NCBI GenBank assembly: GCA_043815085.1 | Contig: JBDRJG010000001.1 | Location: 1,594-65,593 of the forward strand | Reading direction: 5' to 3' | Source of the DNA: Candidatus Iainarchaeum sp. | Lineage (GTDB): Archaea; Nanobdellota; Nanobdellia; Pacearchaeales; GW2011-AR1 | Length of the DNA stretch: 64,000 nt | Shown: in pieces, positions 43,668-62,833 of the stretch | Layout: the number at the start of each line of letters is the position of its first letter | Numbering within the stretch: the first letter of the stretch is position 1 | The notes under the pieces: model-generated | Databases searched by the model: none | What the model saw: only the letters and a program-made list of their open reading frames with translations | What the model was told of the DNA's origin: nothing | Program-made: the position numbers and the translations under genes

Positions 43668-44939
43668 ATGGAAAAAGAAGGTGGTCTGAAAAAATATTTA
43701 ATTAATCCCCCATCTCCATTTTTAATTGATGAAAAGGTGTTTCCAAATCTAGGTTTGATAAGTTTAGCCACTTCACAAGACTTGGATATTATTGATTTTT
43801 CTGGAGATAAAAATTTTGAAGAAACGGCAAAGAAAATTAATGGTGATTGGTTTGGTTTTTATTCAACAACCCCCCAATTCCCCACGACTTACAAAATTTT
43901 CAAAGAAATTAAAAAGAATAACCCCCATGCAAAATTTGTAATTGGCGGGCCTCATGCTTCTGCGGTTTATAATTTAGATAAAGAAGATATAAACAAAAAA
44001 AGAATAGAAGAGTTTGACTTTATTTTTGTAGGAGAAGCTGAAAAGGAAATTGAATTAAAAAACAAATACAATTTTTCCAAGCTTATTAAAAATATTGATG
44101 AAATAAAGATTCCAAATAGAAATAAAGTAAAAATAGAGGAATACCATTATAATATACTTGGTAAAAAGACCACAACAATTATGACTCAAAGAGGTTGCCC
44201 ATTCCAATGTGTTTTCTGTTCAGGTAGAGAAGTTGAGATGTATAACAAAGTAAGACAACATTCTGCAAATAGAATCCTCGAGGAAATGGATTATTTAAAT
44301 TCTGAATTTGGATATGAAGCTTTTATGTGGTATGACGATGAAATAAATACAAACCCCGGAAGATTGGAAGAGATAGCATATTTACTTAAAAAAAGAAATT
44401 ATATCCATAGAGGATTTGTAAAGAGCGATTTAATTGTAAAAAATCCAAAGAGCCTTGATTATCTAGCAGATATGGGTTTTGTTGAATTGTGTTTTGGGTG
44501 TGAAAGTGGAAGTAACAGAATACTCGAAGCAGTCGGCAAAGGAACAAATTATGATATAAATCTAAAAGCAACTAAATTAATAAAAGAAAGAGGAATGAAA
44601 ACAAAGGTTTTCATGATGGTTGGATTGCCTGATGAAAATTATGAAGACGTTATGCTAACTAAAAAGTGGTTAGAAGAAGCTAAACCCGATGATTTTGATA
44701 TTACCATCCTTAATCCTTATCCTGGCTCAAAAATATATAATCTTGCAAAGCCTACAAAAGAATTAAATGGATATAATTTTGAGTATAATGGTTTGTTCTT
44801 TAATAAGATAGATTTCGCAAAGGATGATTCTTTTTATAAAGGAAAGATTGGAGAGTATCCTTGTTCTGTGAGGACAAAAAGTTTGACATCAGAAGAGATA
44901 GTTAATCTAAGAGAAAATATTGAAAAAGATTTAAAATGA
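43668..44939 (+). CDS. B12-binding domain radical SAM protein (class B)
   Basis: 423 aa. N-terminal cobalamin-binding Rossmann-like domain. CxxxCxxC (MTQRGCPFQCVFCSG). Confidence 0.75.
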   Translation: MEKEGGLKKYLINPPSPFLIDEKVFPNLGLISLATSQDLDIIDFSGDKNFEETAKKINGDWFGFYSTTPQFPTTYKIFKEIKKNNPHAKFVIGGPHASAVYNLDKEDINKKRIEEFDFIFVGEAEKEIELKNKYNFSKLIKNIDEIKIPNRNKVKIEEYHYNILGKKTTTIMTQRGCPFQCVFCSGREVEMYNKVRQHSANRILEEMDYLNSEFGYEAFMWYDDEINTNPGRLEEIAYLLKKRNYIHRGFVKSDLIVKNPKSLDYLADMGFVELCFGCESGSNRILEAVGKGTNYDINLKATKLIKERGMKTKVFMMVGLPDENYEDVMLTKKWLEEAKPDDFDITILNPYPGSKIYNLAKPTKELNGYNFEYNGLFFNKIDFAKDDSFYKGKIGEYPCSVRTKSLTSEEIVNLRENIEKDLK

Positions 44940-45025
44940 TTAATTTGTGGAGACAATGTATTTTTTATATTTTATTTAATTAATAAATCTTTTTAAATAT
45001 AAGGTATTTTATTAAAACAATTAAA

Positions 45026-46162
45026 ATGAAATCAATTTGCCTAGTCTCTGGTTCTTCACCAGAATTTCTTGGAGGAATTAGCCTATATCAAAGAAATTTA
45101 ATTGAATATTCAAAAAAGAATAATTTAGACTTTCGCTTCACGTGGATTTATCCTGGAAAAGAAAATAAAGAGTTTATTTTGAATGAAATAAGATGTATAG
45201 AATTAAAATCAATTAAATATCCTTTTTTAGAAGAATTTGATTTTGCAAGAAAAGTGAGAAAAATAATATCAAAAAAAAACTTTGATATAATAAATACTCA
45301 TGCAAATTGGGGTTATTTTTTAAAAAATTATAATAAAAGAGAAAACCAAAAAATAATTCATACCTGCCATGGTGTAAGTTACCAATACTTTAAAGTTCAA
45401 TTTTCTCGTTTTGGATTTTTTAGATATTTATTATACACCCTTTTGCCTCTTATCTATTTATTAGAGAAACCTCCAATGAAGAAAGCAGATAAAATTATTT
45501 GTGTCGCAGAAAAAGTTAAAGAAGATTTAGAAAAAATTTACTGGAAAAGAAAAAATCTAAAAGTTATTAGAACCGGAGTTGACATCAAAAATTTTAAAAG
45601 TATTTCTAAAGGAAAATCAAGAAAAGAATTAAATCTTGATAAAAATAAAATTTATGGGCTTTATTCAGGAAGAGGGGGATATTTCAACAAGGGGCTTGAT
45701 CGTGCAGTTAATTTAGGAAAAGAATTATATATATTAAATAAAAATTTTAGATTAATCGTAATCGGCTCAGATAAAATTAAATGTAAAGAATATTTAGATG
45801 AACCTTTCATAATTTATAGGGGAATTATTGATAGAAATATCCTAAATAAATACTATTCTGCAAGTGATTTCTTTTTTTCTTTATCAAGATATGAAGGGGG
45901 GGCACCAACTCTTGCTGTTGGCGAAGCAATGGCTTCGGAATGTCTTGTTGTTTGCTCTAAGGATTCTAAACCAGAAATAATTGAAAATGATGCAAATGGC
46001 TTAATAATTGAAAATTTTGATAAAAATGATGCGAACAAGATTATAAGAGTCTTAAATGATAAAAAAAATAAAAGTGAAATAATAAAAAATTCAATTAAAA
46101 CAATTAAAGAACTTTCCCTTGAAAAATGGGGGGAGAAATATTTTGAGATATTAATGGATTAG
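45026..46162 (+). CDS. glycosyltransferase family 1 (GT-B)
   Basis: 378 aa. SRYEGGAPTLAVGEAMASECLVVCSKDSKPEIIENDANGLII. Confidence 0.7.
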   Translation: MKSICLVSGSSPEFLGGISLYQRNLIEYSKKNNLDFRFTWIYPGKENKEFILNEIRCIELKSIKYPFLEEFDFARKVRKIISKKNFDIINTHANWGYFLKNYNKRENQKIIHTCHGVSYQYFKVQFSRFGFFRYLLYTLLPLIYLLEKPPMKKADKIICVAEKVKEDLEKIYWKRKNLKVIRTGVDIKNFKSISKGKSRKELNLDKNKIYGLYSGRGGYFNKGLDRAVNLGKELYILNKNFRLIVIGSDKIKCKEYLDEPFIIYRGIIDRNILNKYYSASDFFFSLSRYEGGAPTLAVGEAMASECLVVCSKDSKPEIIENDANGLIIENFDKNDANKIIRVLNDKKNKSEIIKNSIKTIKELSLEKWGEKYFEILMD

Positions 46163-46193
46163 ATTGTGTAAATTATCCAAGAATATAAAATAT

Positions 46194-46877
46194 TTATCTT
46201 AATCCGAGAGAGAAACCTTCTTTGTTCTGATTAAATTGTTTCTCTCTATATTCGGCATTATCCTCTCCTCTTTGATTGAGAGGACATTCAGAAGCAGAAT
46301 ATATATTTTCTATGGATAGTCCCATTTTGTGGGCCCTTCCAACGAGAAACATTAAAGTTGCCCAACCCTTATCTCCCTCAATCTCTTTTACTTGATTGCC
46401 TAAAGAACTTGAAAAAAGCTTTGGTCCATAAATAAAATCCCCTTTAATTCTTGTTTCATCTTCAATTATTTGGTTCATTTTTCCCTCCCATTCTCGCTGA
46501 TGAACTGGAAAAGTCTTCATTTGCTCAGAAGTTCTGCTAATAGCAGCAAAAACACCCTTTCCTGCAAAATATTGATTAAGTGATTTCTCTAAACCATTTA
46601 CAAACCAATCATATTTATCAGGTTCTGTATATAAAACAAAATATGCATTTTGCGATGCCCTCAATATAGAATTTTTGTGCTGATATGTCAATCCTCCTTG
46701 AACAGTTTCAACATTGTGCCCCATTAATTTCAAAGAATTGATAAATCTCTCAGAACTTCCCCCATCTGCAATATAGACAGGATAGTTAGTCTTAGATAAA
46801 ACCTCAAGTGCAGATTCCATCAATTCTGCATTCCCTTTTTTATCAAAAGTCATTGTTGCAATTGCTAATTTTTCCAT
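46194..46877 (-). CDS. hypothetical protein (227 aa)
   Basis: ORF in the glycan island. No motif recognised. Confidence 0.4.
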   Translation of the reverse strand: MEKLAIATMTFDKKGNAELMESALEVLSKTNYPVYIADGGSSERFINSLKLMGHNVETVQGGLTYQHKNSILRASQNAYFVLYTEPDKYDWFVNGLEKSLNQYFAGKGVFAAISRTSEQMKTFPVHQREWEGKMNQIIEDETRIKGDFIYGPKLFSSSLGNQVKEIEGDKGWATLMFLVGRAHKMGLSIENIYSASECPLNQRGEDNAEYREKQFNQNKEGFSLGLR

Positions 46878-47014
46878 AAAACATTCAAGAGGCCCCCTTT
46901 TTAAATACTTATATTATGCAAAATATTGATTAAAAATTTTTAATAGAAAAAGAATACAAAAAAACCTCATCCAATCACAACAATCTTTTAAAAAGATAAG
47001 ATAATCCCTAAAAA

Positions 47015-48112
47015 ATGGAAAAGAGATATGATTATCTTGTTGTTGGATGTGGTTTTTCAGGGATTGTTCTTGCTGAAAGACTGTCTTCTATAGGCAAAAA
47101 AGTCCTAATTATTGATAAAAGAAATCATATTGGAGGAAATTGTTATGATTATAAATCTGGAAATATTTTGGTGCAAAAATATGGACCGCATATATTTCAT
47201 ACAAAGAATAAAGATGTTTTTGAATATCTAAATAAGTTCACAAAATTTAATAACTATCAGCATAAAGTTTTAGCATATTATGATAAAAGATATTTTCCAA
47301 TTCCAATAAATCTAAATACTGTAAATAAATTCTTTAATATAAATTTAAAAGATGAAAAAGAACTAAAAATCTTCCTTAAAGATAAAGTCAAAGTAGTCAA
47401 AAAAATAAAAAATTCTGAAGATGTTGTGGTATCTAAATTTGGAGAAAAATTATATGAAGCATTTGTAAAAATTTATACAAAGAAACAATGGGACAAATAT
47501 CCTCACGAACTTGATAAATCTGTTTTAGAACGTCTCCCTATAAGATATAATAAAAATGATTTTTATTATGATGATCTCTTTCAGGGGATGCCAGAAAAAG
47601 GGTTTAAAAGAATGTTCGAGAAAATGCTTTCAAATAAAAATATATCCATAAAATTAGATACCCCATATACAGAAAATTTAAAAAATATTGCTAAGGAGAT
47701 TATATGGACAGGGAAAATTGATGAATATTTTAATTACAAATTTGAAAAATTAGAATATAGAAGCGTGGATTTTATTTTTGAAAAATTCAGATTAAAAAAT
47801 TTCCTTCCTAATTCAGTAGTTAATTTCACTGAGGAAAGATTTAAGTTTTTAAGGATAACTGAGTTTAAAAAGTTCTATGGAATAAAATCAAAAAAAACAA
47901 TAATTTGTAGAGAATTTTACTTTGGGGAGGGGGAACCAGCTTATCCTGTTTATAATAAAAAGAATCTTAAACTTTTAAAAAAATACTTAAATGAATCAGA
48001 AAAAGAAAAAAACATTTATTTTCTTGGACGATTAGGGAGATATAAATACATAAATATGGATCAGTGTGTGGAAGAAGCATTAGAATTGTTTGAAAAGATA
48101 AAAAACAGATAG
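47015..48112 (+). CDS. glf: UDP-galactopyranose mutase
   Basis: 365 aa. YDYLVVGCGFSGIVLAERL is the FAD dinucleotide motif. IGGNCYDY...GPHIFHT is the UGM signature. Confidence 0.8.
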   Translation: MEKRYDYLVVGCGFSGIVLAERLSSIGKKVLIIDKRNHIGGNCYDYKSGNILVQKYGPHIFHTKNKDVFEYLNKFTKFNNYQHKVLAYYDKRYFPIPINLNTVNKFFNINLKDEKELKIFLKDKVKVVKKIKNSEDVVVSKFGEKLYEAFVKIYTKKQWDKYPHELDKSVLERLPIRYNKNDFYYDDLFQGMPEKGFKRMFEKMLSNKNISIKLDTPYTENLKNIAKEIIWTGKIDEYFNYKFEKLEYRSVDFIFEKFRLKNFLPNSVVNFTEERFKFLRITEFKKFYGIKSKKTIICREFYFGEGEPAYPVYNKKNLKLLKKYLNESEKEKNIYFLGRLGRYKYINMDQCVEEALELFEKIKNR

Positions 48113-48123
48113 GTAATTTAAAA

Positions 48124-49065
48124 TTATATCTTTTTCCTTAAAAAGTTCATAATTCTTATTGGAAAAAGACTTAATAAATAATAGATTACAAGTTGCTTAT
48201 CAAAACCGTAATTTCTAAAATAACTTTTTATATTTTTTCTTAATTTTTTCCCCTGGTTATCTTGAAATTCTGCAATAATGTTTATTTTCAAATTAGATTT
48301 GTTAGAATCTACTGAAATTTTTACTTCTGGGGGCTCTAAATTTTCATAATCATCTTTTCCTGTTTTTATTCGCTGTTGATAAAATTCTTTTGCTTTTTGA
48401 AAAAAATAATCTGGATTTTTCTTAATAAAAGTGGCAGAGTTTTGATTAACTCTATATTTAATAAGGAATTCAGGAAGATTTGTGATTTTTTTTCTTGCAG
48501 ACAAAACATTTAAAATAAAATCATAATCATCAGAAATTGAAAATTTTTCTCTGTAAAAAAATTCTTTTGTGTTTCTATACATTACAGAGGGATGAAGTAT
48601 GCAATTTGTTTTTTCTAATTTCCTTACAGTTTTTGAAGGATTGTCATATTTTAAAAAAACCCCTAATCTATTTCCTTCTTCATCTATTATAATTGCAGAA
48701 CCCCCAATTAAGAATATTTCAGGGTGTTTATCCAAATAATCTGCCTGAATTTTAAACCTGTCTCTAAGCGAGACATCATCTGAATCCATTACTGCTATGT
48801 ATTCTCCCCTAGCCATTTTTAATCCTCTATTTCTTGTATTCACGCACCCCAAATTTTTTTTATTATTTAACAAAATTATTCTTTTATCTTTTTTCGAATA
48901 TTTTTTTATTATCTCTAATGATTTATCTTTTGACTCATCATTGATTATAATAAATTCAAAATCCTCAAAACTTTGATTTAAAATAGAAGTTATGGTTTCC
49001 TCTAAGAATTTCTTTGCATTATAAACGGGTAATATTACAGATATTTTAGGATTTTTTCTTTTCAT
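48124..49065 (-). CDS. glycosyltransferase family 2
   Basis: 313 aa. ISVILPVYNAKKFLEETITSILNQSFEDFEFIIINDESKDKS...YIAVMDSDD. Confidence 0.75.
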   Translation of the reverse strand: MKRKNPKISVILPVYNAKKFLEETITSILNQSFEDFEFIIINDESKDKSLEIIKKYSKKDKRIILLNNKKNLGCVNTRNRGLKMARGEYIAVMDSDDVSLRDRFKIQADYLDKHPEIFLIGGSAIIIDEEGNRLGVFLKYDNPSKTVRKLEKTNCILHPSVMYRNTKEFFYREKFSISDDYDFILNVLSARKKITNLPEFLIKYRVNQNSATFIKKNPDYFFQKAKEFYQQRIKTGKDDYENLEPPEVKISVDSNKSNLKINIIAEFQDNQGKKLRKNIKSYFRNYGFDKQLVIYYLLSLFPIRIMNFLRKKI

Positions 49066-50078
49066 TTTTTAGATTCGATTATCTCTTTAAATCTCTTTTG
49101 AATCCTCCTTATATCTAAATCTCTTGGGGGCTTATTATCATTATACCAAGGCTCTCTAAGAATCTTTTCATATAATTTATCATCATTATCGACTTTTATT
49201 ATATATTTTATAAATTCCTTCATATTTTTAAAATCATTATAGTTTATGAAACTTTTTGTGTTGAACTCTTTATTTACATCTTTATGTCCAAAATAAATTG
49301 GTATACTGTTTACTAACATGGGATGAGTTAGTTTCTCTGATATATACCCTGACCTTGAAGAATTTTCAAATGCAGTCGTAAATTTATATTTTTTTATGAA
49401 ATTTAATTTATCTATTACACAACTTGCAGAAATCCTTGATTCTTTTGGACTATTGTATCTTATTGGGGGCATATTGTTCATGCATCTTCCAGGAGCATCA
49501 ATTTTCTTGTATTTACTTAATTCTTTAAAAAAATCGTTTCTTTTGGCAATATCACGAGCATAAATAAAATTACAGAATTCAGTTTTTTCTTTTTTTATTT
49601 TATTAAAATTAATTTTCTTTTTTATCGTGGGAATTCCAAAGTTTTTTAACTGATAATCATTAACTATAATTATGAGTTTCATATGTCTTGGATTATTTAT
49701 TTCTTCTTCAGGATATTCTGAGAAAGCCCAACCACATTTATTCATATTTGGTTTTATAAGTTCTGAACCAAAGAAAATTTTTACAAAATTTCCCTCGGGC
49801 AGGGGAAATTTGTCTTTTATAGAAAAATTGGAAATCTTTGAATAAATTTCCCTTAATAAAATATATAATTTAGGGGATATTCTCCTTATAAAATCTCCTT
49901 TTTTTGATAAATCTCCGGAAGTCTTTATTTCTTGATAAACAGAATAAAAAAGATAATCTGGATTTTCGCTTATTTTAACATCATATAAGTTTCTAAGGGT
50001 ATTAGTAAGAAAGTTATTTTCTGGGTTAAATCCCTCCCAAAAATACTTGAAGTTTATTTTTATTGTTTTCTTTTTCAT
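49062..50078 (-). CDS. GT10-like alpha-1,3-fucosyltransferase, putative
   Basis: 338 aa. KYKFTTAFENSSRSGYISEKL matches the alpha-1,3-FucT motif (YKFxxAFENSxxxxYxTEK). Confidence 0.6.
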   Translation of the reverse strand: MKKKTIKINFKYFWEGFNPENNFLTNTLRNLYDVKISENPDYLFYSVYQEIKTSGDLSKKGDFIRRISPKLYILLREIYSKISNFSIKDKFPLPEGNFVKIFFGSELIKPNMNKCGWAFSEYPEEEINNPRHMKLIIIVNDYQLKNFGIPTIKKKINFNKIKKEKTEFCNFIYARDIAKRNDFFKELSKYKKIDAPGRCMNNMPPIRYNSPKESRISASCVIDKLNFIKKYKFTTAFENSSRSGYISEKLTHPMLVNSIPIYFGHKDVNKEFNTKSFINYNDFKNMKEFIKYIIKVDNDDKLYEKILREPWYNDNKPPRDLDIRRIQKRFKEIIESKK

Positions 50079-50121
50079 CTTTTTAAGAAAAATCTCAAAT
50101 ATATAAATCTACTTTCCATAA

Positions 50122-51633: not shown

Positions 51634-51736
51634 CTTTTTATAAGAAAACCTTTATTTTTAAAGATAAGTAAGTAGGATATAAAACTATAAGATAACCTCA
51701 ATAAAGATTAAAAAGGGTAAAGTATCTTAAAAATAT

Positions 51737-53347: not shown

Positions 53348-53356
53348 TTTTATATA

Positions 53357-55547: not shown

Positions 55548-55709
55548 TGAGAAAAAACTTATTTAAATAGGGAGATTAAAGAAATACACACTCAACATCA
55601 TTATTTATATTTTTTAATTGTTCAAAAACTTCTTGATTATATTGCCCCAAATTTAAAAATATTCTCAAATTATCTTTTCCGGATACAACCTCTTCTGGCT
55701 TCCTGCAAA

Positions 55710-56420: not shown

Positions 56421-56456
56421 ATTAATATTAAATGAAATTATTTATAAACTTATTTC

Positions 56457-57389: not shown

Positions 57390-57455
57390 ATTTTCCCAAC
57401 AATTGCTTGGTTTTTAAATTTTATTGTTGTAAAAACATATTTATTTTATTTTAAA
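57387..57455 (-). promoter_or_regulatory. duplicated promoter/5' leader element, copy 1 (the twin is at 58095-58150)
   Basis: Roughly 60 nt near-identical sequence (AAATAAAATAAATATGTTTTTACAACAATAAAATTTAAAAACCAAGCAATTGTTGG(G)AAAATATGGAA) running into the start codon of the IMPase-family gene. Confidence 0.6.
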
Positions 57456-58109
57456 TTGTTCATAACTGTAATAATCAAATCCTTTAGGAGTGAAAATAAA
57501 ATGCCCCACATCAACTATAAATGGTTTGCTTTCACCCAACGCAGGCATTTCATTTATTACTTTTATTATATCTGATATATTATTAGGATTTCTTTCCTCT
57601 GTGAACCTATTTACTGTCATGTGGGCTCCCCAAGCTAAAGTAGTTTCTAATCCTCTTTGTTTAGAATTTTTACCAATTTCTTGCATTGTATTAAAGAAGT
57701 TTTCATCTGGATTTCCTTTTGCGATTAAACTATTTTTATTATACAACCAAGAATCATAATTTATTGTTGGTCTTCTTAACCCCTTAACTGAGGAATCAAC
57801 ACTTTTTGATAATTCTTCTAAAACTCCTTTATCTAATGAAAAATCATCGCTTGTGCCTTCAACAAGAATTGTTGTATGTAAATTAGATTTATCATAAATA
57901 ATTGAGGGAATTATTTCTGAAACTTTATAAGAGACATTTGTAGCAGACTCTACAATCTTATCTGGATGTCTAAATACAATTAAGTATGAGCCTTGATATT
58001 TTGGAATATTTGGAACAACCCCTGTTTCTTCTAATGAAGAAGATTCCATTCTGCTATAAATTGAATTTTGCTTTTCTAAAAAATCTTTGAATTCCATATT
58101 TTCCAACAA
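57441..58109 (-). CDS. 2H phosphoesterase superfamily protein (LigT-like), putative
   Basis: Two H-x-T-x motifs (NLHTTILVEG; GAHMTVNRF) about 85 aa apart. The duplicated 5' leader shared with the downstream gene points to a start at the internal ATG at 58097 (MEFKDF...). Confidence 0.5.
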   Translation of the reverse strand: MLENMEFKDFLEKQNSIYSRMESSSLEETGVVPNIPKYQGSYLIVFRHPDKIVESATNVSYKVSEIIPSIIYDKSNLHTTILVEGTSDDFSLDKGVLEELSKSVDSSVKGLRRPTINYDSWLYNKNSLIAKGNPDENFFNTMQEIGKNSKQRGLETTLAWGAHMTVNRFTEERNPNNISDIIKVINEMPALGESKPFIVDVGHFIFTPKGFDYYSYEQFKIK

Positions 58110-58150
58110 TTGCTTGGTTTTTAAATTTTATTGTTGTAAAAACATATTTA
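58095..58150 (-). promoter_or_regulatory. duplicated promoter/5' leader element, copy 2
   Basis: Same element immediately upstream of, and including, the ATG of the 2H-phosphoesterase gene. Confidence 0.6.
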
Positions 58151-58152
58151 TT

Positions 58153-58587
58153 TTATTTGTGTTCTGAATCTATTCTCCCTGAAGGTCTTTCTCCATCATC
58201 CAAAACTCTTATAACATCGTCAACGTGGGGAGTTGATACTTCTTGTAAAATAATATCTGTAAGGGCAATAACTCTATGCTTTCTAGGAGGAACAACTGTG
58301 AAAGAATCGTCTGCTTTCATTAATCTTTTTTCTATTTTTCCTTTTTCATTTTCCAACCAAACTTCTGCCTTACCTTCAATAATATAATTTGTTTCTATCT
58401 TTCTTTCATGGTATTGGAAACTGGTCTTTTCCCCCTTATTGATGTAAATTCTTTTATAACAATAACCCCTTCCGTTAGAATCTTCCCAGAGCTCTAACCA
58501 AACTTCTTTTCCCCAAGGCTTTTTTACTGTGCATGGAAAAGTATAATTTTCATATCCCCTTGGCCTATGTAGTTTTGGTCTATCCAT
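58153..58587 (-). CDS. cupin-domain protein (mannose-6-phosphate isomerase type II-like cupin)
   Basis: 144 aa. KPWGKEVWLE...YCYKRIYINKGEKTSFQYHERKIETNYIIEGKAEVWLEN matches the PMI-type cupin motif. Confidence 0.55.
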   Translation of the reverse strand: MDRPKLHRPRGYENYTFPCTVKKPWGKEVWLELWEDSNGRGYCYKRIYINKGEKTSFQYHERKIETNYIIEGKAEVWLENEKGKIEKRLMKADDSFTVVPPRKHRVIALTDIILQEVSTPHVDDVIRVLDDGERPSGRIDSEHK

Positions 58588-59572
58588 AATGATTAATCGC
58601 CTCCATTATTTCTTTAATTATATTCTCTTTTATATCTTCTCTTTTTTCTAGTTCATTAATTATTCTTTTATAACTTTCTGAAGAAAAATGATAATGTCCG
58701 GCAATCGTACAACATAAAAACTTATTTTCAGGCTTATTTTTATGCATCCATTTTCCCCATTTCTTTTCATTATAAACTTCTTCTAAAAAATCTTCAAAAT
58801 TAATGCCATACATTAAACATTTACTTAAGACAATGCTTGTTTGGATAACTCCTAATTGGGGGGCAATATTCATTGCGTCAACAATCCCTTTTCTAGACTC
58901 AATTTCTTCTTTAGATAGATAATCTGCATTATGTTCTTTTAATTTTATTCCTTTTTCTTTCATAATTTTGGATACTCTTTCTACAAATTGCTTATTAAAA
59001 TTTCCAATCTGGTTGATTTCTTTAATAAGGCTCCCAGTTTGAATAACATAGAATTCTGGTTTACAAAATTGCAGGAAAAAATCTATTTCTTTCTCTATCT
59101 CTTCTAAATTAATTATCCCAAAATTGGTTCCAATATTTTCGTCAGTTCCCATTTCAAGTGAGATTGAGTGATTCAACCTTAAACAATATTCTACTGCTTT
59201 TTTAGATTCTTGCAACATTTCGTCGTTATTTCCCTTAAAATGACAGAAATCTATATGAATTAAATCAAAACCTAACTCTATATCTGATTTTATGGTTTTA
59301 TAGGTATCTTCTAAATCATAATTTCCATTAAATCCTGGTCCACAGTGATCACGACATATTCTTACATTGCTATTTGGATATTTTTGCCTCATAACCTTTA
59401 TAAAATTCATAAATTCTTTAGTCGTCCAATTGTTCACATATCCGCCAGAGTAATCTATTTGATTTTTAGACGCTATAATCATTAATTCTTTTCTATGATA
59501 ATTAGATACTCTAAAAATTGCTTCGATTATTTCTGTACTCATTGGACCTATCCCTAAATTAGAATTAATCAT
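58580..59572 (-). CDS. GatZ/KbaZ-like protein (tagatose-bisphosphate aldolase non-catalytic subunit / tagatose-6-P kinase family), putative
   Basis: 330 aa. GIGPMSTEIIEAIFRVSNYHRKELMIIASKNQIDYSGGYV...RICRDHCGPGF parallels the GatZ N-terminus (GIxSVCSAHPxVIEAAL...IEATSNQVNQFGGYTG...GGDHLGPN). Confidence 0.45.
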   Translation of the reverse strand: MINSNLGIGPMSTEIIEAIFRVSNYHRKELMIIASKNQIDYSGGYVNNWTTKEFMNFIKVMRQKYPNSNVRICRDHCGPGFNGNYDLEDTYKTIKSDIELGFDLIHIDFCHFKGNNDEMLQESKKAVEYCLRLNHSISLEMGTDENIGTNFGIINLEEIEKEIDFFLQFCKPEFYVIQTGSLIKEINQIGNFNKQFVERVSKIMKEKGIKLKEHNADYLSKEEIESRKGIVDAMNIAPQLGVIQTSIVLSKCLMYGINFEDFLEEVYNEKKWGKWMHKNKPENKFLCCTIAGHYHFSSESYKRIINELEKREDIKENIIKEIMEAINHYG

Positions 59573-61167
59573 GTTATTGTTCCAATTTCTTTTAATGCAT
59601 AATAAAGTTTGCTCTTTCCCAAAAAATATAGCATTAAATCAAAAGGATCATTGTGCAAAGGGGACATATTTAAAAAAATTAATGCCATTAATAATTTTAT
59701 TTTTTTAAAATCATATCCATTCTTTGTTATAAAAGATTCAAATTCTTCTTTTGCCTCTAAGAGATTGTTTTTTATAGAAAAGTCATAATAAACACTGGAA
59801 CCGCTAATATCAAAAGAGAAGTCTCCTTTTTTTATTAACTGATAAGAAAGATTTATTCCCCCATATAGTTTTGCCAAATCATAATATACATCCCCATATT
59901 TAGTTAAACCGCCAAAATCTTGTCTCCAATCCAAAAGAACAAATTTTTGCAAATTACTTTTTAAGTCTACTGTTACAAGAACATTATCAAATTGTAAATC
60001 CCCGTGAAAATTACTTGGTGTTCCTTCAATTAGATATTTCCAATCAATTTTTTCTAAAAGATCTTTTAAAGGAGGAATTTGAACCCCATTAATATTATTC
60101 CATCCGTCTTCTATCCCTGTTTTTTTATAAAATTGGTCTAATCTTTCAATAGTCTTATCATAATAGAATCTTTTGCATGCTTCTTGAAATTGCTTTTTGT
60201 TTTCTTCATCAAGATCCTGAATTTTCCAAAGATAACTCTTGGTCCAATGAAGAAAATCTTTGACTAATTGTCTATTTATTACATCATACAAAACTTGCCC
60301 ATCTATTTTTTTATAACAATAAAAATTTTCACTCTGTGATTCTATTTCTGGACATAGAGTAGAAAGATATCTTGCTCTCTCAATTCTTTTTTTTACTATA
60401 TTGGAGTCTCCAAAAAACTTGATAACCCTCCCATTTACAAAATAAATAAATTCATTTCCCTTACTAAAATCAAAATTACTTGTTGCGCCAGAAAAACTTT
60501 CATTGGTTTCTTTATAATTTTTAAAATTTCCAGTATCAAACCAAGTTACACCTATAGGAACAAGCTTCTTTTCAATTAATCTACTAAATCCATTAGAAAC
60601 TTGAACTTCCCCACTCTTTAATTCCTTGTTTTTTTCAAGACCATCAAAATATTCATTATAATCTTTAATCCCTGCAACTCCTATAAAAGCAAATTTATTA
60701 TCACATTTTATTTTATCATCCAATTGATATACTAAATTATTTTTTATTTTGACAGTGCAATATGGCTCAGTTTCCTTTACTGGAGCAATTCCAAACCAAT
60801 TTTCAGTTGGTTCTGGAATTTTTTCTAAAATAATTGTGTCTGCTACAAAAAATATAAATGGGCATTGTAATTGATCTTTACATTTTAATATAGAATGCCC
60901 TGGACCGGTTCCAGGCCCCATATACTTATCTACTTCAACATAAGTTATTTTTCTTTCAGGGTGGGCTAAACTAAGATAACCAATTATTGTTTCTTTCTTG
61001 TGTCCAACAGCAACAACTATCTCCACTTCCTCTGGAAATTTTTCTATTATGTAGGAAATCACTGCCTTATTATTTATGGGCAAGACTGCTTTGTTCACGT
61101 TTTCTGTTAGTGCTCCCATCCTATTTCCCACACCCGCAGCAAGAATGCAAACTTTGTAATTATTCAT
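59569..61167 (-). CDS. bifunctional nucleotidyltransferase / kinase (APH/choline-kinase-like fold) fusion protein
   Basis: 532 aa. The N-terminal roughly 230 aa NTP-transferase domain (KVCILAAGVGNRMGALTENVNKAVLPINNK) is paralogous to 55710-56420. The C-terminal domain has a Brenner-type HGDLQFDNVLV catalytic loop and FVLLDWRQDFGG. Confidence 0.65.
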   Translation of the reverse strand: MNNYKVCILAAGVGNRMGALTENVNKAVLPINNKAVISYIIEKFPEEVEIVVAVGHKKETIIGYLSLAHPERKITYVEVDKYMGPGTGPGHSILKCKDQLQCPFIFFVADTIILEKIPEPTENWFGIAPVKETEPYCTVKIKNNLVYQLDDKIKCDNKFAFIGVAGIKDYNEYFDGLEKNKELKSGEVQVSNGFSRLIEKKLVPIGVTWFDTGNFKNYKETNESFSGATSNFDFSKGNEFIYFVNGRVIKFFGDSNIVKKRIERARYLSTLCPEIESQSENFYCYKKIDGQVLYDVINRQLVKDFLHWTKSYLWKIQDLDEENKKQFQEACKRFYYDKTIERLDQFYKKTGIEDGWNNINGVQIPPLKDLLEKIDWKYLIEGTPSNFHGDLQFDNVLVTVDLKSNLQKFVLLDWRQDFGGLTKYGDVYYDLAKLYGGINLSYQLIKKGDFSFDISGSSVYYDFSIKNNLLEAKEEFESFITKNGYDFKKIKLLMALIFLNMSPLHNDPFDLMLYFLGKSKLYYALKEIGTIT

Positions 61168-61411
61168 TTTGTTCAGAAAAAAATTTAATATTAAATAAGG
61201 GATGCATAATTATAACCAATATATTCTCTCTTCCTGTTCTTCTCATTTTTACTCGATTATCCTGTGAGCGACCTTAACTTATTTTTATATGTTCTTGTCC
61301 GCTTTTTAATAATCACTGATAGATAAATTAAGTTATTTATAAAGTTTGTGGAATATTTTTATATAAATTCTTTATACAAAAATTCTTAAAGACTGATTTT
61401 TAATAATAGAT

Positions 61412-62833
61412 ATGAAAGTATTGTTTGTTTATCATAATAGGGTAGAAGATGGTTATATGCCCCAAGTAATCGCCATTTTAGGAGGAGCACTCAAACAAGA
61501 AGGAATAGAAACTAAATTCTTTGATACAACTTTTTACAGAGATAAAAACGATATTTTTATAAATAACGATAGAAAAGTTAGAGAATCTCAAAAAAAAGGA
61601 GGGTACCAACCTGTCCAAGGATTCGGCTTTGAAAGAGAGGTAGTCGACCTCAAAGAAAAATTTTTAGAAGTAGTAGAAGAATACAAACCAGATTTAATTG
61701 CTGCAACTTCTACATCTTTTGAGTTTAATTCTCTTTTGGATTTTATCCTTCCGGCTAAAAAGAAATTTAATGTTCCTGTTATTGTGGGGGGATCACATGC
61801 CACAGTGGTTCCTGAAAAAGCAATCCAGAAAGAGGGGGTTGATTTTATATGTGTCGGACAAGGAGAGAAACCCTTACTTGAACTTGTCCGAAGAATGGAA
61901 AATAGAGGAGATATCACAACTATCCCTAGTCTGTGGATTAAATCTCCTAACGGAGAAATAATAAGAAATAAAATTGGGCTGCAAATTGAAAATATGGATG
62001 ATACTCCCGAAGCAGATTGGGATTTAATAGATGAAAGACACAGGATACGGCCATTTGAGGGTGAAGTAAAAAGATATGGTTGGTTTGAGATAAGCAGAGG
62101 ATGCCCTTATAGCTGTAGTTATTGTATTAATTCAAAATTGCACAAAATAGAGCTAGAGGGGGGAGTAAAACCTGGAGCTTATAGATTTTTTTCCCCAAAA
62201 GAGATAATAAGAAGAATGAAAAAATATAAAGAAAAATATGGTTTTAATCATGTGCAGTGTATAGATGAAAATATGGCTGCAATGCCTTTAGAGAAATTAA
62301 AGGAACTTGCTAAACTATACAAAGAAAATATAGGGTGTAGTTTTTTCACACAAAGCAGACCCGAATGTTTTGTTACGAGTCCCGAAAAAGCAAAAATAAT
62401 GGCTGAAATGGGTTGTAAGATGGTTGGTCTTGGTGTTGAAAGTGGAAATGAGGAATTGCGTAGGACCATACTAAATAGGCCAATGAAAGATGGAATTGTT
62501 GAGGAGGCTGTAAGAATATTAAAAAACTCTGGAATTATGGTTGCGACATATTATATTATAGGATTTCCAACTGAAACAGAAGAGATGATTAAACAGACTA
62601 TTGATTTACATAGAAGAATACAACCAGATAGATTTTCTGTTAGATTTTTACATCCTTTCCCAGGAACATCTATAAGAAATATTTGTGTTAAAGAAGGATA
62701 TATTTCAGATAATTATGAGGATATTAATTCGGATGCTTCTTTTTTCAGAGACCCAGTTTTAAATCTTCCTTCTCCTCCACACCCTACAAAAGAAAGACTA
62801 AAAGAGCTGAGAGAAGAATTTGAGAGATATTAA
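61412..62833 (+). CDS. B12-binding domain radical SAM protein (class B)
   Basis: 473 aa. N-terminal B12-binding domain (PDLIAATSTSFEFNSLLDFI...VIVGGSHAT). CxxxCxxC is ISRGCPYSCSYC. Confidence 0.75.
   Translation: MKVLFVYHNRVEDGYMPQVIAILGGALKQEGIETKFFDTTFYRDKNDIFINNDRKVRESQKKGGYQPVQGFGFEREVVDLKEKFLEVVEEYKPDLIAATSTSFEFNSLLDFILPAKKKFNVPVIVGGSHATVVPEKAIQKEGVDFICVGQGEKPLLELVRRMENRGDITTIPSLWIKSPNGEIIRNKIGLQIENMDDTPEADWDLIDERHRIRPFEGEVKRYGWFEISRGCPYSCSYCINSKLHKIELEGGVKPGAYRFFSPKEIIRRMKKYKEKYGFNHVQCIDENMAAMPLEKLKELAKLYKENIGCSFFTQSRPECFVTSPEKAKIMAEMGCKMVGLGVESGNEELRRTILNRPMKDGIVEEAVRILKNSGIMVATYYIIGFPTETEEMIKQTIDLHRRIQPDRFSVRFLHPFPGTSIRNICVKEGYISDNYEDINSDASFFRDPVLNLPSPPHPTKERLKELREEFERY

What the first reader, a model, noticed from the sequence alone, without database searches (positions are those of the whole stretch)
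43668..62833. Four cobalamin (class B) radical SAM enzymes embedded in a protein-glycosylation island
The 34-64 kb island contains AglH and AglB, at least 6 glycosyltransferases, UGM and a flippase, plus four paralogous B12-binding radical SAM proteins (43668, 51877, 53357 and 61412). Class-B radical SAMs usually catalyse methylations at unactivated carbons or other difficult C–C and C–H chemistry. Four of them beside five conventional SAM methyltransferases suggest heavily C-methylated or otherwise radical-modified sugars, or lipid-carrier modification, on this organism's surface glycan. That is unusual for archaeal agl clusters.
Basis: inference. Interest (0 to 1): 0.6.

Follow-up and report, generated by a model that had tools for sequence, protein, structure and literature searches.

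The report
B12-type radical enzymes in glycan island
An ultra-small (DPANN) archaeon keeps four vitamin-B12-type radical SAM enzymes, from three uncharacterised families, inside the gene cluster that builds the sugar chains on its surface proteins; relatives in other tiny archaea, tiny bacteria and some phages show the same arrangement, which points to sugar chemistry nobody has yet described.

Summary
ORFs at 43668, 51877, 53357 and 61412 each carry a Pfam B12-binding domain, a Radical_SAM domain and a CxxxCxxC motif. They lie in a 30-kb N-glycosylation island with AglH-like GT4, AglB (WWDYG), six further glycosyltransferases, UGM, a Wzx-like flippase and four (not five) ordinary methyltransferases.

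They are three families, not four close paralogues. RS2 and RS3 are a conserved tandem pair (70% identical). RS1 and RS4 are about 25% identical to all the others. None reaches any curated NCBIfam family cut-off.

All 13 contexts of homologues I annotated (DPANN, CPR, Omnitrophota) were glycan clusters, and nine sampled T4-like phage contigs with RS1 relatives were also rich in sugar genes. RS4 travels with a nucleotidyltransferase/cupin operon. A distant homologue is fused to an HddC-like nucleotidyltransferase beside GmhA/HddA/GmhB homologues, so it probably acts on a nucleotide-activated sugar. An RS2/3 homologue is fused to an FkbM methyltransferase.

Best reading: cytoplasmic tailoring enzymes of glycan precursors, most likely cobalamin-mediated C-methylases. 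The chemistry is inferred, not shown. Cobalamin use is least certain for RS1, whose closest solved relative is the cobalamin-free diol dehydratase AprD4. I rate this a new variant of a known kind, of moderate interest.

The parts
43668..44939 (+). RS1: class-B-type radical SAM protein (423 aa), family 1. Cobalamin use is uncertain.
   Evidence: Pfam Radical_SAM 89.5 bits, B12-binding 36.3 bits. CPFQCVFC motif. The family profile's best solved match is AprD4 (6.4e-24), over the radical SAM core only. Homologues sit between GT1 and GT2 genes in agl clusters.
51877..53301 (+). RS2: class B radical SAM protein (474 aa), family 2, first of a tandem pair.
   Evidence: Pfam B12-binding 78.9 bits, Radical_SAM 77.5 bits. 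69.6% identical to RS3. RS2-type orthologues are kept beside RS3-type ones in relatives.
53357..54790 (+). RS3: class B radical SAM protein (477 aa), family 2, second of the tandem pair.
   Evidence: Pfam hits. 100% identical to an NCBI 'Candidatus Diapherotrites archaeon' protein. AlphaFold2 model pLDDT 89.3; best folds are CysS, OxsB, TsrM and TokK. The family profile aligns to OxsB from position 40, including the B12 domain.
61412..62833 (+). RS4: class B radical SAM protein (473 aa), family 3.
   Evidence: Pfam hits. AlphaFold2 model pLDDT 89.9; best folds are TsrM, AprD4 and QCMT. The B12 domain aligns to TokK, TsrM and OxsB. The conserved neighbourhood contains nucleotidyltransferase and cupin genes.
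55710..61167 (-). Operon divergent from RS4, with six genes: LicC-like nucleotidyltransferase fused to an APH-like kinase (59569-61167), a GatZ/class-II-aldolase-like TIM barrel (58580-59572), a PMI-like cupin (58153-58587), an unknown 222-aa protein (57441-58109), an IMPase/FBPase-family phosphatase (56457-57389) and a MobA-like nucleotidyltransferase (55710-56420). I presume it makes a nucleotide-activated sugar.
   Evidence: Pfam and NCBIfam hits. LicC 1jyk is the best solved match. HGDLQFDN motif and a sub-threshold APH hit of 20.9 bits. The same gene set lies next to an RS4 orthologue on a 146-kb JGI contig.
62830..63315 (-). KdsC/YrbI-like HAD sugar-phosphate phosphatase, convergent with RS4 and overlapping it by 4 bp.
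   Evidence: Pfam Hydrolase_3. TIGR01670 51.5 bits, below cut-off. A HAD gene follows the RS4 orthologue.
54834..55547 (+). TylF-type (sugar) O-methyltransferase directly downstream of RS2-RS3.
   Evidence: Pfam TylF 66.5 bits.
46194..51633 (.). Block that travels with RS2/RS3 in a relative: unknown 227-aa protein (46194-46877, -), UDP-galactopyranose mutase (47015-48112, +), GT2 (48124-49065, -), GT10 fucosyltransferase-like (49062-50078, -) and Wzx-like flippase (50122-51633, -).
   Evidence: Pfam hits. Orthologues of all five lie beside the RS3/RS2 pair in L001.
34293..43430 (.). Core of the N-glycosylation cluster: AglH-like GT4 (34293-35285), AglB (35327-38173), FkbM methyltransferase, GT1, Methyltransf_23, GT1, Methyltransf_24, and GT2 (42480-43430, -, divergent from RS1).
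   Evidence: Pfam hits. WWDYG at AglB residue 648 and multiple hydrophobic (transmembrane-like) windows in the crude hydropathy scan.
45026..46162 (+). GT4-family (GT-B fold) glycosyltransferase directly downstream of RS1.
   Evidence: Pfam Glyco_transf_4 plus Glycos_transf_1. Orthologues occur in L001 and L007.

Best explanation
The four proteins are soluble, cytoplasmic tailoring enzymes of the N-glycan pathway of a DPANN (Diapherotrites-type) archaeon. They belong to three uncharacterised families with the class B (B12-domain) radical SAM architecture.

Proposed mechanism (inferred). The [4Fe-4S] cluster on CxxxCxxC reductively cleaves SAM to a 5'-deoxyadenosyl radical. The radical abstracts a hydrogen from an unactivated sugar carbon. 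Methylcobalamin held in the N-terminal Rossmann domain then delivers a methyl group, as in GenK, Fom3, TokK and CysS. The substrates are nucleotide-activated or dolichol-linked sugars on the cytoplasmic side. Modification would therefore precede flipping by the Wzx-like flippase and transfer to protein by AglB.

RS4 most likely acts on the nucleotide-activated sugar made by the operon it diverges from (isomerase, kinase, phosphatases, nucleotidyltransferases). RS2 and RS3 are a retained duplicate pair that probably perform two distinct or successive steps on one sugar. They are linked to fucosyltransferase-family GTs (GT10/GT11), NDP-sugar enzymes and an O-methyltransferase. RS1 works with its flanking GT2 and GT4 glycosyltransferases and is the least certain to use cobalamin.

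Shown: domain architecture, family distinctness and conserved glycan context. Inferred: substrate class, methyl transfer and cobalamin use.
For: Architecture. All four have B12-binding plus Radical_SAM domains above the Pfam cut-offs and a CxxxCxxC motif. No hydrophobic window passes the crude hydropathy scan. No SPASM or other auxiliary-cluster domain was reported by Pfam.

Fold. The RS3 model (pLDDT 89.3) best matches the cobalamin-bound enzymes CysS, OxsB, TsrM and TokK (TM 0.64-0.68), ahead of AprD4. The RS4 model (pLDDT 89.9) matches TsrM, AprD4, QCMT, OxsB, CysS and TokK. The N-terminal domains of the RS2/3 and RS4 family profiles align to the B12 domains of OxsB, TokK and TsrM. A GGxH motif is invariant or nearly so in all three families and is shared with TokK (GGPH).

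Not members of known families. The best NCBIfam scores are 105-160 bits against cut-offs of 251-750.

Context. Every annotated context of homologues is a glycan cluster.
- RS2/3 family: L001 (DPANN; AglB, GT4, GTs, RS3, RS2, UGM, GT2, GT10, flippase), L003 (Parcubacteria; the gene lies between an SDR and a DegT aminotransferase), L005 (Omnitrophota; GT10, RS, epimerase, GT2, GT11), L010 (Falkowbacteria; DegT, SDR, GT, RS, carbamoyltransferase, GT11), L012 (flippase, then RS).
- RS1 family: L007, L008, a JGI 382-kb contig and L172, all with GT1/GT2 neighbours and most with SpoIIM, GT4 and AglB.
- RS4 family: a JGI 146-kb contig with the same HAD, NTase, 548-aa, GatZ-like and cupin set, plus L009 and L170.

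Fusions. P0347 is an HddC-like NTase fused to B12 and radical SAM domains (32% identical to RS4). It is followed by genes whose best NCBIfam matches are GmhB (150 bits), HddA (181 bits) and GmhA (101 bits), all below those models' cut-offs. P0088 is an RS2/3-family protein (53% identical) fused to an FkbM methyltransferase.

Phages. The 150 neighbour ORFs of RS1 relatives on 9 IMG/VR contigs are dominated by NDP-sugar SDRs, GT1/GT2 and methyltransferases, alongside gp32, DnaB and RNR.

Precedent. Most characterised B12 radical SAM enzymes are methylases (list in PMC12931638).
Against: - No enzyme of any of the three families has been characterised, so methyl transfer is an analogy only.
- A Pfam B12-domain hit does not prove cobalamin binding. 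AprD4 and ArsL homologues sit in the same similarity network and do not bind it (PMC12931638).
- AprD4 is the best solved sequence match of the RS1 family. No solved cobalamin binder aligns to RS1's N-terminal domain.
- The fusion that links RS4 to NDP-heptose is only 32% identical, outside the tight RS4 clade (53-91%).
- RS4's neighbours fall into two non-homologous module types (vs 21 and 42), so the substrate may differ between them.
- DPANN archaea largely lack cofactor biosynthesis (PMC8407392), so cobalamin would have to be scavenged. No cobalamin-related gene turned up among the window ORFs I scanned, and no cobalamin riboswitch is in the window.
- The window's island has no SDR dehydratase or epimerase, although relatives carry several.
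Confidence: 0.55

Rival explanations
1. The enzymes are glycan-pathway enzymes but not methylases. They would perform other radical chemistry on sugars: AprD4-like 1,2-diol dehydration (deoxygenation), OxsB/HpnJ-like ring contraction or rearrangement, epimerisation or C-C bond formation. Some of these reactions need no cobalamin. This is most plausible for RS1.
For: AprD4, a sugar-acting and cobalamin-free enzyme, is the best solved sequence match of the RS1 family (6.4e-24). By single-sequence search it is also the best solved match for RS3 and the second best for RS1 and RS4. HpnJ, which contracts a sugar ring in hopanoid biosynthesis, is the best NCBIfam hit for RS1 and RS2. OxsB (ring contraction) is the best profile match of the RS2/3 family (7e-30). 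The window island lacks any SDR 4,6-dehydratase, so deoxygenation would need another route.
Against: The AprD4 NCBIfam model scores only 50-77 bits against a cut-off of 500. No AprD3-type partner reductase is adjacent. The N-terminal domains of RS2/3 and RS4 do align to true cobalamin-binding domains. Methylases are the large majority of characterised class B enzymes.
Confidence: 0.25
2. They modify the lipid carrier (dolichol phosphate) or membrane lipids rather than the sugars, in the manner of archaeal GDGT ring synthases or methylases, or of the ladderane-type lipid radical SAM enzymes.
For: The ladderane 'lipid biosynthesis B12-binding/radical SAM' model scores 135-137 bits for RS2 and RS3. 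The genes lie next to membrane-associated steps (AglH-like GT4, flippase).
Against: Those scores are far below the cut-off of 360. The same families occur at 50-58% identity in CPR bacteria, Omnitrophota and Melainabacteria, and more distantly (31-43% identity) on phage contigs, none of which share archaeal lipids. Conserved neighbours are NDP-sugar enzymes, nucleotidyltransferases and GTs, not isoprenoid genes. The known fusions are to a nucleotidyltransferase and to a methyltransferase. No comparison with GrsA/GrsB sequences could be made.
Confidence: 0.07
3. They modify a peptide or protein, either a RiPP or the S-layer/glycoprotein substrate itself, as PoyB/C, ApyD, QCMT and Mmp10 do.
For: The RiPP enzyme ApyD scores 88-137 bits. 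QCMT (9ccb), a protein C-methylase, is the best solved single-sequence match for RS1 and RS4.
Against: All scores are far below the cut-offs. No precursor-peptide, protease or transporter genes typical of RiPP clusters were seen. Neighbourhoods are consistently sugar-nucleotide and GT genes.
Confidence: 0.05
4. The placement in the island is incidental. The genes would be unrelated housekeeping or decaying radical SAM genes that happen to lie in a variable region.
For: The island has lower G+C (0.255-0.29) than its flanks (0.30-0.35), which suggests a plastic region where unrelated genes could accumulate.
Against: All four are intact and full length relative to homologues (96-100% coverage). 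They keep invariant cluster-binding cysteines. They recur in glycan clusters across two domains of life and in phages. RS2-type and RS3-type orthologues are both retained on several contigs.
Confidence: 0.03

Closest known systems
[quoted passage not shown]
   Same: Class B architecture and a sugar substrate. They methylate unactivated sp3 carbons of a hexose (C-6', C-4''). Several such enzymes can act in one pathway, as with the RS2/RS3 pair.
   Different: They belong to secondary metabolism in actinomycetes and act on free pseudo-oligosaccharides, not on a protein N-glycan pathway. No sequence or model of them was available, so relatedness was not tested. They are listed as characterised in PMC12931638.
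Fom3 with Fom1 (fosfomycin): B12 radical SAM methylase whose substrate is cytidylylated by a LicC-like nucleotidyltransferase
   Same: The logic matches what I propose for RS4. A nucleotidyltransferase first attaches a nucleotide handle, then the class B radical SAM enzyme modifies the nucleotide-linked substrate. RS4 diverges from a LicC-like NTase (best solved match 1jyk), and a homologue is fused to an NTase.
   Different: Fom3's substrate is a phosphonate. No PEP mutase or phosphonate genes are present here. The neighbours are sugar-phosphate enzymes (PMI-like cupin, aldolase-like protein, IMPase-like and KdsC-like phosphatases).
AprD4 (apramycin): radical SAM 1,2-diol dehydratase, PDB 6fd2
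   Same: It is the best solved sequence match of the RS1 family profile (6.4e-24) and a top match for the others. It acts on a sugar (paromamine) and has a B12-like Rossmann N-terminal domain.
   Different: It does not bind cobalamin and is not a methylase (PMC12931638). The NCBIfam AprD4 model scores 50-77 bits against a cut-off of 500. Similarity covers the radical SAM core only.
CysS (cystobactamid; PDB 9n1b) and TokK (PDB 7kdx): iterative cobalamin-dependent methylases
   Same: CysS is the best structural match to the RS3 model (E 9e-23, TM 0.68). TokK shares the GGPH motif. CysS extends an O-methyl group carbon by carbon. RS2/RS3 sit next to a TylF O-methyltransferase, and a homologue is fused to an FkbM methyltransferase.
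   Different: Only 17-19% identity. CysS and TokK are 625-680 aa with extra C-terminal domains and act on carrier-linked small molecules. The iterative O-alkyl idea for RS2/RS3 is speculation.
HpnJ (hopanoid cyclitol-ether formation) and BchE
   Same: They are the highest-scoring curated NCBIfam models for RS1 and RS2 (HpnJ) and RS3 (BchE). HpnJ acts on a sugar-derived moiety.
   Different: Scores of 105-160 bits against cut-offs of 481-578, so these proteins are not members. No hopanoid or bacteriochlorophyll genes are present.
Characterised archaeal agl clusters (Haloferax volcanii AglB-S, Methanococcus AglA-Z, Sulfolobus)
   Same: AglB with WWDYG, an AglH-type priming GT4, soluble GTs, SAM methyltransferases and a Wzx-like flippase.
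   Different: To my knowledge none of the characterised clusters contains a class B radical SAM enzyme. Here there are four, and the feature is shared with other DPANN clusters.

Membership tests
Radical SAM superfamily | CxxxCxxC motif that ligates the [4Fe-4S] cluster, within a Radical_SAM (PF04055) core | tested here: met
   PF04055 scores 77-90 bits against a cut-off of 29.5 for all four. Motifs are CPFQCVFC, CYFSCSFC, CPNACSFC and CPYSCSYC. The three cysteines are invariant in each family alignment.
Class B (cobalamin-dependent) radical SAM | N-terminal Rossmann-type B12-binding domain (PF02310) preceding the radical SAM core | tested here: met
   PF02310 scores: RS2 78.9, RS3 62.9, RS4 47.5, RS1 36.3 bits, against a cut-off of 32.1. 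RS1 is marginal.
Class B (cobalamin-dependent) radical SAM | N-terminal domain homologous to, or superposable on, that of enzymes solved with cobalamin bound | tested here: inconclusive
   Met for the RS2/3 family (OxsB alignment from position 40, plus TokK and CysS) and by fold. Met for the RS4 family (TokK 91-236, TsrM, OxsB) and by fold. Not met for the RS1 family, where only the core aligns, best to the cobalamin-free AprD4. No RS1 model was made.
Class B (cobalamin-dependent) radical SAM | Actual binding and use of cobalamin | not testable with these tools
   Needs purified protein. AprD4 and ArsL homologues show that the domain signature alone is not sufficient (PMC12931638).
Curated class B families in NCBIfam (HpnJ, BchE, PhpK, ladderane lipid enzyme, ApyD, BzaD, QCMT/TIGR04014, TIGR04013, HpnR, TsrM, KedN5, AprD4, ArsL, TIGR04295) | Whole-protein score at or above the model's curated cut-off | tested here: not met
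   Best scores: RS1 105 (HpnJ, cut-off 578), RS2 149 (HpnJ), RS3 160 (BchE, cut-off 481), RS4 113 (PhpK, cut-off 600) and 110 (TIGR04013, cut-off 251).
   No reference sequences or models for these were reachable with the tools. Only HpnR, HpnJ, BchE, TsrM and AprD4 could be tested, through NCBIfam and the PDB.
Archaeal N-glycosylation (agl) cluster | AglB/STT3 oligosaccharyltransferase with the WWDYG catalytic motif | tested here: met
   35327-38173 encodes a 948-aa protein. STT3 scores 37.5 bits (cut-off 24.5) and STT3-PglB_core 22.8 bits (just below its cut-off of 23). WWDYG lies at residue 648, and 17 hydrophobic windows were counted.
Archaeal N-glycosylation (agl) cluster | Priming polyprenyl-phosphate sugar-1-phosphate transferase (AglH type), glycosyltransferases and a flippase in the same locus | tested here: met
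   PF00953 scores 102 bits at 34293-35285. Six further GTs are present, and a Polysacc_synt/MurJ-like protein lies at 50122-51633.
NDP-heptose pathway (GmhA / HddA / GmhB / HddC) as the substrate supplier of RS4-like enzymes | Isomerase, kinase, phosphatase and nucleotidyltransferase of that pathway adjacent to the radical SAM gene | tested here: inconclusive
   In L171 (fusion P0347, 32% identical to RS4) the neighbours' best hits are GmhB (150 bits), HddA (181 bits) and GmhA (101 bits), all below the equivalog cut-offs. In the window the four roles are filled by non-homologous proteins (PMI-like cupin, APH-like kinase, HAD and IMPase-like phosphatases, NTases). The sugar could be a hexose or a heptose.

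The most novel reading that the evidence does not exclude
DPANN archaea, CPR bacteria and some T4-like phages decorate their surface glycans with sugars that carry radical-installed carbon substituents. These could be C-methyl or chain-extended sugars. For the RS2/RS3 pair with its O-methyltransferase, they could instead be O-ethyl or O-isopropyl ethers built by CysS-like iterative methylation. At least three previously unrecognised families of cobalamin-dependent radical SAM enzymes acting on nucleotide-activated sugars would make them. This would be a new branch of sugar-nucleotide biochemistry. It would also make the surface coat of these cofactor-auxotrophic episymbionts depend on cobalamin taken from the host or community.
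Probability: 0.3. Interest if true: 0.75.

Novelty: new variant of a known kind. Interest (0 to 1): 0.55.

Why it matters
- No characterised cobalamin-dependent radical SAM enzyme works in protein glycosylation, polysaccharide or sugar-nucleotide biosynthesis. A 2026 review of the class lists none, and the words glycan, sugar and polysaccharide do not occur in it.
- The family searches found 2179 (RS2/3), 546 (RS1) and 264 (RS4) proteins with E <= 1e-10. Those counts include remote class B relatives, but close homologues (50% identity or more) are abundant in DPANN and CPR organisms. They sit precisely in the variable part of glycan clusters, the part that sets surface identity for host attachment and phage recognition.
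- If they are C-methylases of NDP-sugars, they define new monosaccharides and new enzyme tools for late-stage sugar alkylation.
- They would also add a concrete cobalamin requirement to organisms known for minimal metabolism.
- The nucleotidyltransferase-radical SAM and radical SAM-FkbM fusions, and the compact RS4 module, give directly testable substrate hypotheses.

Tried and rejected
- Exact look-up of RS2 in the assembly index found nothing. The source was identified instead through a 100% identical RS3 hit.
- Pattern-based scans of genome contigs and metagenome contigs were dominated by generic radical SAM motifs. They returned mostly remote class B proteins (23-35% identity). Only L010, L011 and L012 were usable, and L011's neighbours were not annotated. 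A planned large neighbourhood census was therefore not possible. A local phmmer census with window proteins was too insensitive for GT families.
- I looked for a cobalamin riboswitch or any Rfam element upstream of the radical SAM genes. The whole window contains only one tRNA.
- I aligned the three ~240-bp divergent intergenic regions upstream of RS1, RS2 and RS4. No convincing shared motif appeared beyond A+T richness.
- I tested whether the ~230-aa C-terminal extension of the ~710-aa RS4 relatives (P0288-P0294), or the extensions of phage RS2/3 relatives, match any island protein. They do not.
- The unknown proteins at 57441-58109 and 46194-46877 have no Pfam, NCBIfam or credible PDB match.
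- Isolated phage genomes (INPHARED) hold no close relative of RS1. The only hit is Streptomyces phage SF3 at 23% identity.
- Seven full-text literature searches found no paper describing class B radical SAM enzymes in DPANN/CPR glycan clusters or in polysaccharide or N-glycan synthesis.
- A phosphonate (Fom1/Fom3-type) pathway for the RS4 module was considered and set aside. No PEP mutase or decarboxylase is present, and the neighbours are sugar-phosphate enzymes.

Full report
**1. What is in the sequence**

- RS1, 43668-44939, 423 aa
- RS2, 51877-53301, 474 aa
- RS3, 53357-54790, 477 aa
- RS4, 61412-62833, 473 aa

Each passes the Pfam gathering thresholds for both a B12-binding domain (PF02310) and a Radical_SAM core (PF04055). 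Each has a CxxxCxxC motif. None has a hydrophobic window passing the crude hydropathy scan, so they are probably soluble cytoplasmic proteins.

The surrounding island runs from about 33.4 to 63.3 kb and is a protein N-glycosylation cluster. It contains:
- SpoIIM-like membrane protein
- AglH-type GT4 (PF00953)
- a 948-aa AglB/STT3 with WWDYG at residue 648
- FkbM, Methyltransf_23, Methyltransf_24 and TylF methyltransferases
- two GT1, two GT2, one GT4/GT1 and one GT10 glycosyltransferase
- UDP-galactopyranose mutase
- a Wzx/MurJ-like flippase

I find four conventional methyltransferases, not five. The left flank (SecY, EMC3-like protein, prefoldin, IF-2B) and the ORFs scanned in the first 17 kb (FtsZ, M50 protease, a Tyw1-like tRNA radical SAM enzyme, helicase and others) are housekeeping. 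I did not scan 16.3-30 kb. The island's G+C (0.255-0.29) is lower than that of its flanks (0.30-0.35).

RS3 is 100% identical to an NCBI protein of a 'Candidatus Diapherotrites archaeon' MAG on a 72-kb contig. The organism is therefore a DPANN archaeon.

**2. Three families, none characterised**

RS2 and RS3 are 69.6% identical. Every other pair is 25-26% identical.

Against NCBIfam, the best curated class B models are HpnJ, BchE, PhpK, the ladderane lipid enzyme, ApyD, TIGR04013, QCMT, HpnR, TsrM and AprD4. They score 50-160 bits against cut-offs of 251-750, so none of the four belongs to a curated family.

Database searches gave 2179 (RS2/3), 546 (RS1) and 264 (RS4) proteins at E <= 1e-10. 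Nearly all are unnamed or carry generic or wrong labels such as 'YgiQ' or 'BchE'.
- RS2/3 relatives at 50-84% identity occur in Diapherotrites, Pacearchaeota, Parcubacteria/Patescibacteria, Omnitrophota and Melainabacteria.
- RS1 relatives occur in Nanoarchaeota-type DPANN and in contigs binned as Patescibacteria.
- RS4 has a tight DPANN clade (53-91% identity) and then drops to 40% or less.

RS2-type and RS3-type proteins are separate orthogroups, and both are kept on the same contigs in at least four relatives. The duplication is therefore old and both copies are maintained.

**3. Are they really cobalamin enzymes?**

A 2026 review states that AprD4 and ArsL homologues fall in the B12 radical SAM similarity network but do not bind cobalamin (PMC12931638). 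The Pfam signature alone is therefore not proof.

- **RS2/3.** The family profile aligns to OxsB from position 40, including the whole N-terminal domain (7e-30). It also aligns to CysS and TokK, but to AprD4 only over the core. The AlphaFold2 model of RS3 (pLDDT 89.3) is closest to cobalamin-bound CysS, OxsB, TsrM and TokK (TM 0.64-0.68), ahead of AprD4.
- **RS4.** The N-terminal domain aligns to the B12 domains of TokK, TsrM and OxsB. The model (pLDDT 89.9) matches TsrM, AprD4, QCMT, OxsB, CysS and TokK about equally.
- **RS1.** The family profile's best solved match is AprD4 (6.4e-24). No solved cobalamin binder aligns to its N-terminal domain.

A GGxH motif in the N-terminal domain is invariant or nearly so in all three families and is shared with TokK. 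I therefore treat RS2, RS3 and RS4 as probable cobalamin enzymes and RS1 as uncertain.

**4.

I obtained annotated neighbourhoods for 13 homologue contexts. All are glycan clusters.

RS2/3 family:
- L001 is a DPANN relative. Its gene order is AglB, GT4, GTs, a TylC3-like C-methyltransferase fusion, RS3, RS2, a homologue of the unknown 227-aa protein, UGM, GT2, SDR, GT10, GMD-like gene and flippase. It carries orthologues of most genes in the window's 45-54.8 kb block (GT4b, the unknown 227-aa protein, UGM, GT2, GT10, flippase, RS2, RS3) in a rearranged order, plus SDR genes the window lacks.
- In L003 (Parcubacteria) the gene lies between an NDP-sugar SDR and a DegT aminotransferase, among GT1 genes.
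- L005 (Omnitrophota) has GT10, the radical SAM gene, an epimerase, GT2 and GT11. It also carries three more B12 radical SAM genes, NeuB and E1 alpha/beta genes.
- L010 (Falkowbacteria) has DegT, SDR, GNAT, a GT, the radical SAM gene, an O-carbamoyltransferase, GT11, another B12 radical SAM gene and GT2.
- L012 (archaeon) has a PMT-type GT, a flippase and the radical SAM gene.

Fucosyltransferase-family GTs (GT10 or GT11) accompany this family in the window, L001, L005 and L010.

RS1 family:
- L007 has GT1, then RS1, then GT17 and GT2. Further along come orthologues of the window's GT4b, GT1a and AglH-like GT4, then SpoIIM and prefoldin.
- L008 has two RS1-like genes among SDRs, DegT genes, E1 alpha/beta, FkbM and an NTase-GHMP kinase fusion.
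- A 382-kb JGI contig has SecY, EMC3, IF-2B, SpoIIM, GT4 and STT3, then RS1, then GT1 and, further on, GT10.
- L172 has STT3, GT4, FkbM and GT2, then RS1, then GT1.

RS4 family:
- A 146-kb JGI contig has SpoIIM, GT4 and STT3, then RS4, HAD, NTP_transf_3, a 548-aa protein, a GatZ-like gene, a PMI-like cupin and a SPASM radical SAM gene. This is the same gene set as window 55710-63315.
- L009 and L170 have an NTase-SDR fusion, a cupin and a phosphodiesterase on one side of RS4. On the other side are a kinase, IMPase-like genes and a sulfatase-family gene.

The fusion context (P0347, L171) is the thirteenth.

Phage contigs give an independent line. RS1 relatives (31-37% identity, full length) lie on dozens of IMG/VR contigs, and RS2/3 relatives (41-43% identity) on six. 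A Pfam census of 150 neighbouring ORFs from nine of the RS1-relative loci gave:
- Epimerase 9, GDP_Man_Dehyd 8
- GT1 8, GT2 6, GT11 2
- UDP-glucose dehydrogenase 4
- Methyltransf_24 4, FkbM 3
- gp32 2, DnaB 2, ribonucleotide reductase 2

These look like T4-like phage genomes with glycan islands.

The refutation condition was 'housekeeping families not conserved near agl genes'. It is clearly not met.

**5. Clues to substrates**

*(a) RS4.* The divergent operon encodes six proteins:
- a LicC-like nucleotidyltransferase (best solved match 1jyk) fused to an APH/choline-kinase-like domain (HGDLQFDN motif; APH 20.9 bits, just below threshold)
- a GatZ/class-II-aldolase-like TIM barrel
- a cupin that passes the Pfam threshold for the mannose-6-phosphate isomerase C-terminal domain
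- an unknown 222-aa protein
- an IMPase/FBPase-family phosphatase
- a second nucleotidyltransferase

A KdsC-like HAD phosphatase overlaps the RS4 stop codon.

Isomerase, kinase, phosphatase and nucleotidyltransferase are the four activities of the NDP-heptose route. They are also those of a mutase-free GDP-mannose route. An aldolase plus a bisphosphatase could supply the ketose phosphate.

Independently, P0347 is an HddC-like nucleotidyltransferase fused to a B12 radical SAM enzyme (32% identical to RS4). The genes that follow it have GmhB, HddA and GmhA as their best matches.

Both lines suggest that RS4-type enzymes act on a nucleotide-activated manno-type hexose or heptose. This is an inference. 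The fusion lies outside the tight RS4 clade, and the L009/L170 modules are built differently.

*(b) RS2/RS3.* The pair is followed directly by a TylF-type O-methyltransferase. A 53%-identical homologue (P0088) carries a C-terminal FkbM methyltransferase domain. The best structural match is CysS, which elongates an O-methyl group by repeated radical methylation. This is consistent with two methylation systems working on one sugar. Iterative O-alkyl extension is possible but speculative.

*(c) RS1.* It is always flanked by GT-B (GT1/GT4) and GT2 glycosyltransferases. In several phage loci a small GT2 gene abuts the RS1-like gene. RS1 may therefore act on the product of that transferase, a lipid-linked intermediate.

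**6. Most likely mechanism and rivals**

Most likely (confidence about 0.55): these are radical SAM/cobalamin C-methylases of glycan precursors. They act in the cytoplasm before Wzx-type flipping and AglB transfer. The more general claim, that they are dedicated glycan-tailoring enzymes, I hold at about 0.85.

Rivals:
- Non-methylating radical sugar chemistry, such as AprD4-like deoxygenation or OxsB/HpnJ-like rearrangement, especially for RS1 (0.25).
- Lipid-carrier or membrane-lipid modification (0.07). This is disfavoured because the families are shared with bacteria and, more distantly, phages, and are fused to nucleotidyltransferase or methyltransferase domains.
- Peptide or protein modification (0.05).
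- Incidental placement (0.03).

Evidence against the best model:
- No member of these families has been characterised.
- The DPANN host probably cannot make cobalamin (PMC8407392).
- No cobalamin-handling gene was found among the ORFs I scanned, and no riboswitch is in the window.

**7. Comparison with what is known, and novelty**

The architecture is that of known class B radical SAM enzymes. The nearest functional analogues are:
- the aminoglycoside sugar C-methylases GenK and GenD1
- the Fom1/Fom3 'nucleotide handle first' logic
- AprD4
- CysS and TokK

Membership in any curated family was tested and not met. GenK, GenD1, Fom3, HpnP and GrsA/B could not be tested for lack of reference sequences. 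The 2026 review's list of characterised B12 radical SAM enzymes contains no glycan, polysaccharide or sugar-nucleotide enzyme. Seven literature searches found no description of these families.

I therefore rate this as a new variant of a known kind: a known enzyme class recruited, as three uncharacterised families, into surface-glycan biosynthesis of DPANN/CPR organisms and some phages. It is not peculiar to this genome.

**8. Verdict**

Interest is 0.55. The finding is a well-founded lead to new sugar chemistry with concrete, testable substrate hypotheses, but it rests on genomic inference alone.

Noticed in passing
L187-L233 and others (IMG/VR contigs); L173-L178: Relatives of RS1 (31-37% identity, full length) lie on dozens of uncultivated 'viral' contigs with G+C from 0.31 to 0.65. 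Relatives of RS2/3 (41-43%) lie on six. In nine sampled RS1-relative loci the neighbours are NDP-sugar SDRs, GTs, UDP-glucose dehydrogenases and methyltransferases, together with gp32, DnaB and RNR. These look like T4-like phages carrying glycan islands with class B radical SAM genes.
   Followed up: partly
Judging by protein similarity, those look DPANN-type. They may be DPANN contigs filed as viral in IMG/VR.
   Followed up: no
window 59569-61167 (-): A 532-aa fusion of a LicC-like nucleotidyltransferase with an APH/choline-kinase-like domain (HGDLQFDN motif). From memory, this is the architecture of LicCA-type kinase-cytidylyltransferases. The second domain scores just below the Pfam threshold.
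   Followed up: partly
window 30003-38173; JGI 382-kb contig; L007; L172: A conserved DPANN 'frame': SecY, EMC3/TMCO1-like protein, prefoldin and/or IF-2B, SpoIIM-like membrane protein, AglH-like GT4 and AglB. A highly variable glycan-gene region follows, so the agl cluster sits at a fixed chromosomal address next to the translocon gene.
   Followed up: partly
L019, L021 (Bathyarchaeota), L022 (Elusimicrobia), L053 (Riflebacteria): Remote class B radical SAM genes occur in rows of 3-6 paralogues, sometimes with GT2 and FkbM genes. Their function is unknown and they were not analysed further.
   Followed up: no
L172 (GCA_043810945.1, labelled Patescibacteria group bacterium): This contig carries an archaeal-style SpoIIM, AglB (STT3 with faint AglB_core-like hit) and GT4 arrangement like the DPANN loci. 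It may be a mis-binned DPANN contig or a lateral transfer.
   Followed up: no
L170 7608-9896 (-), and the equivalent gene in L009: A 762-aa three-part fusion next to RS4 orthologues: sugar-phosphate nucleotidyltransferase, RmlD-like reductase (164 bits) and a PurF-like phosphoribosyltransferase domain (103 bits). This is an unusual combination.
   Followed up: no
L171 (JGI Ga0376277_0002245): The context of the NTase-radical SAM fusion P0347 is a long run of co-directional genes. It includes many small ORFs without Pfam hits, plus GTs, two further radical SAM genes and a heptose-pathway set. It looks virus-like.
   Followed up: no
window 46194-46877 (-) and 57441-58109 (-): Two proteins (227 and 222 aa) have no Pfam, NCBIfam or credible PDB match. 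The 227-aa one is conserved (251 bits) next to the RS2 orthologue and the UGM-GT2 pair in L001 and L002, so it probably belongs to the pathway.
   Followed up: partly
window 34000-63300: The island contains no SDR-type NDP-sugar epimerase or dehydratase, whereas the homologous clusters carry one to several (for example L001, L007, L170). The island's G+C is also 2-5 points below that of its flanks.
   Followed up: no
window 8850-10307 (-) and 5849-6862 (+): Two tandem VTT/DedA-domain membrane proteins lie here. From memory, this family is implicated in polyprenyl-phosphate recycling. A Tyw1-like (wyosine) radical SAM enzyme is the only other radical SAM gene found among the ORFs scanned, and it is clearly housekeeping.
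   Followed up: no
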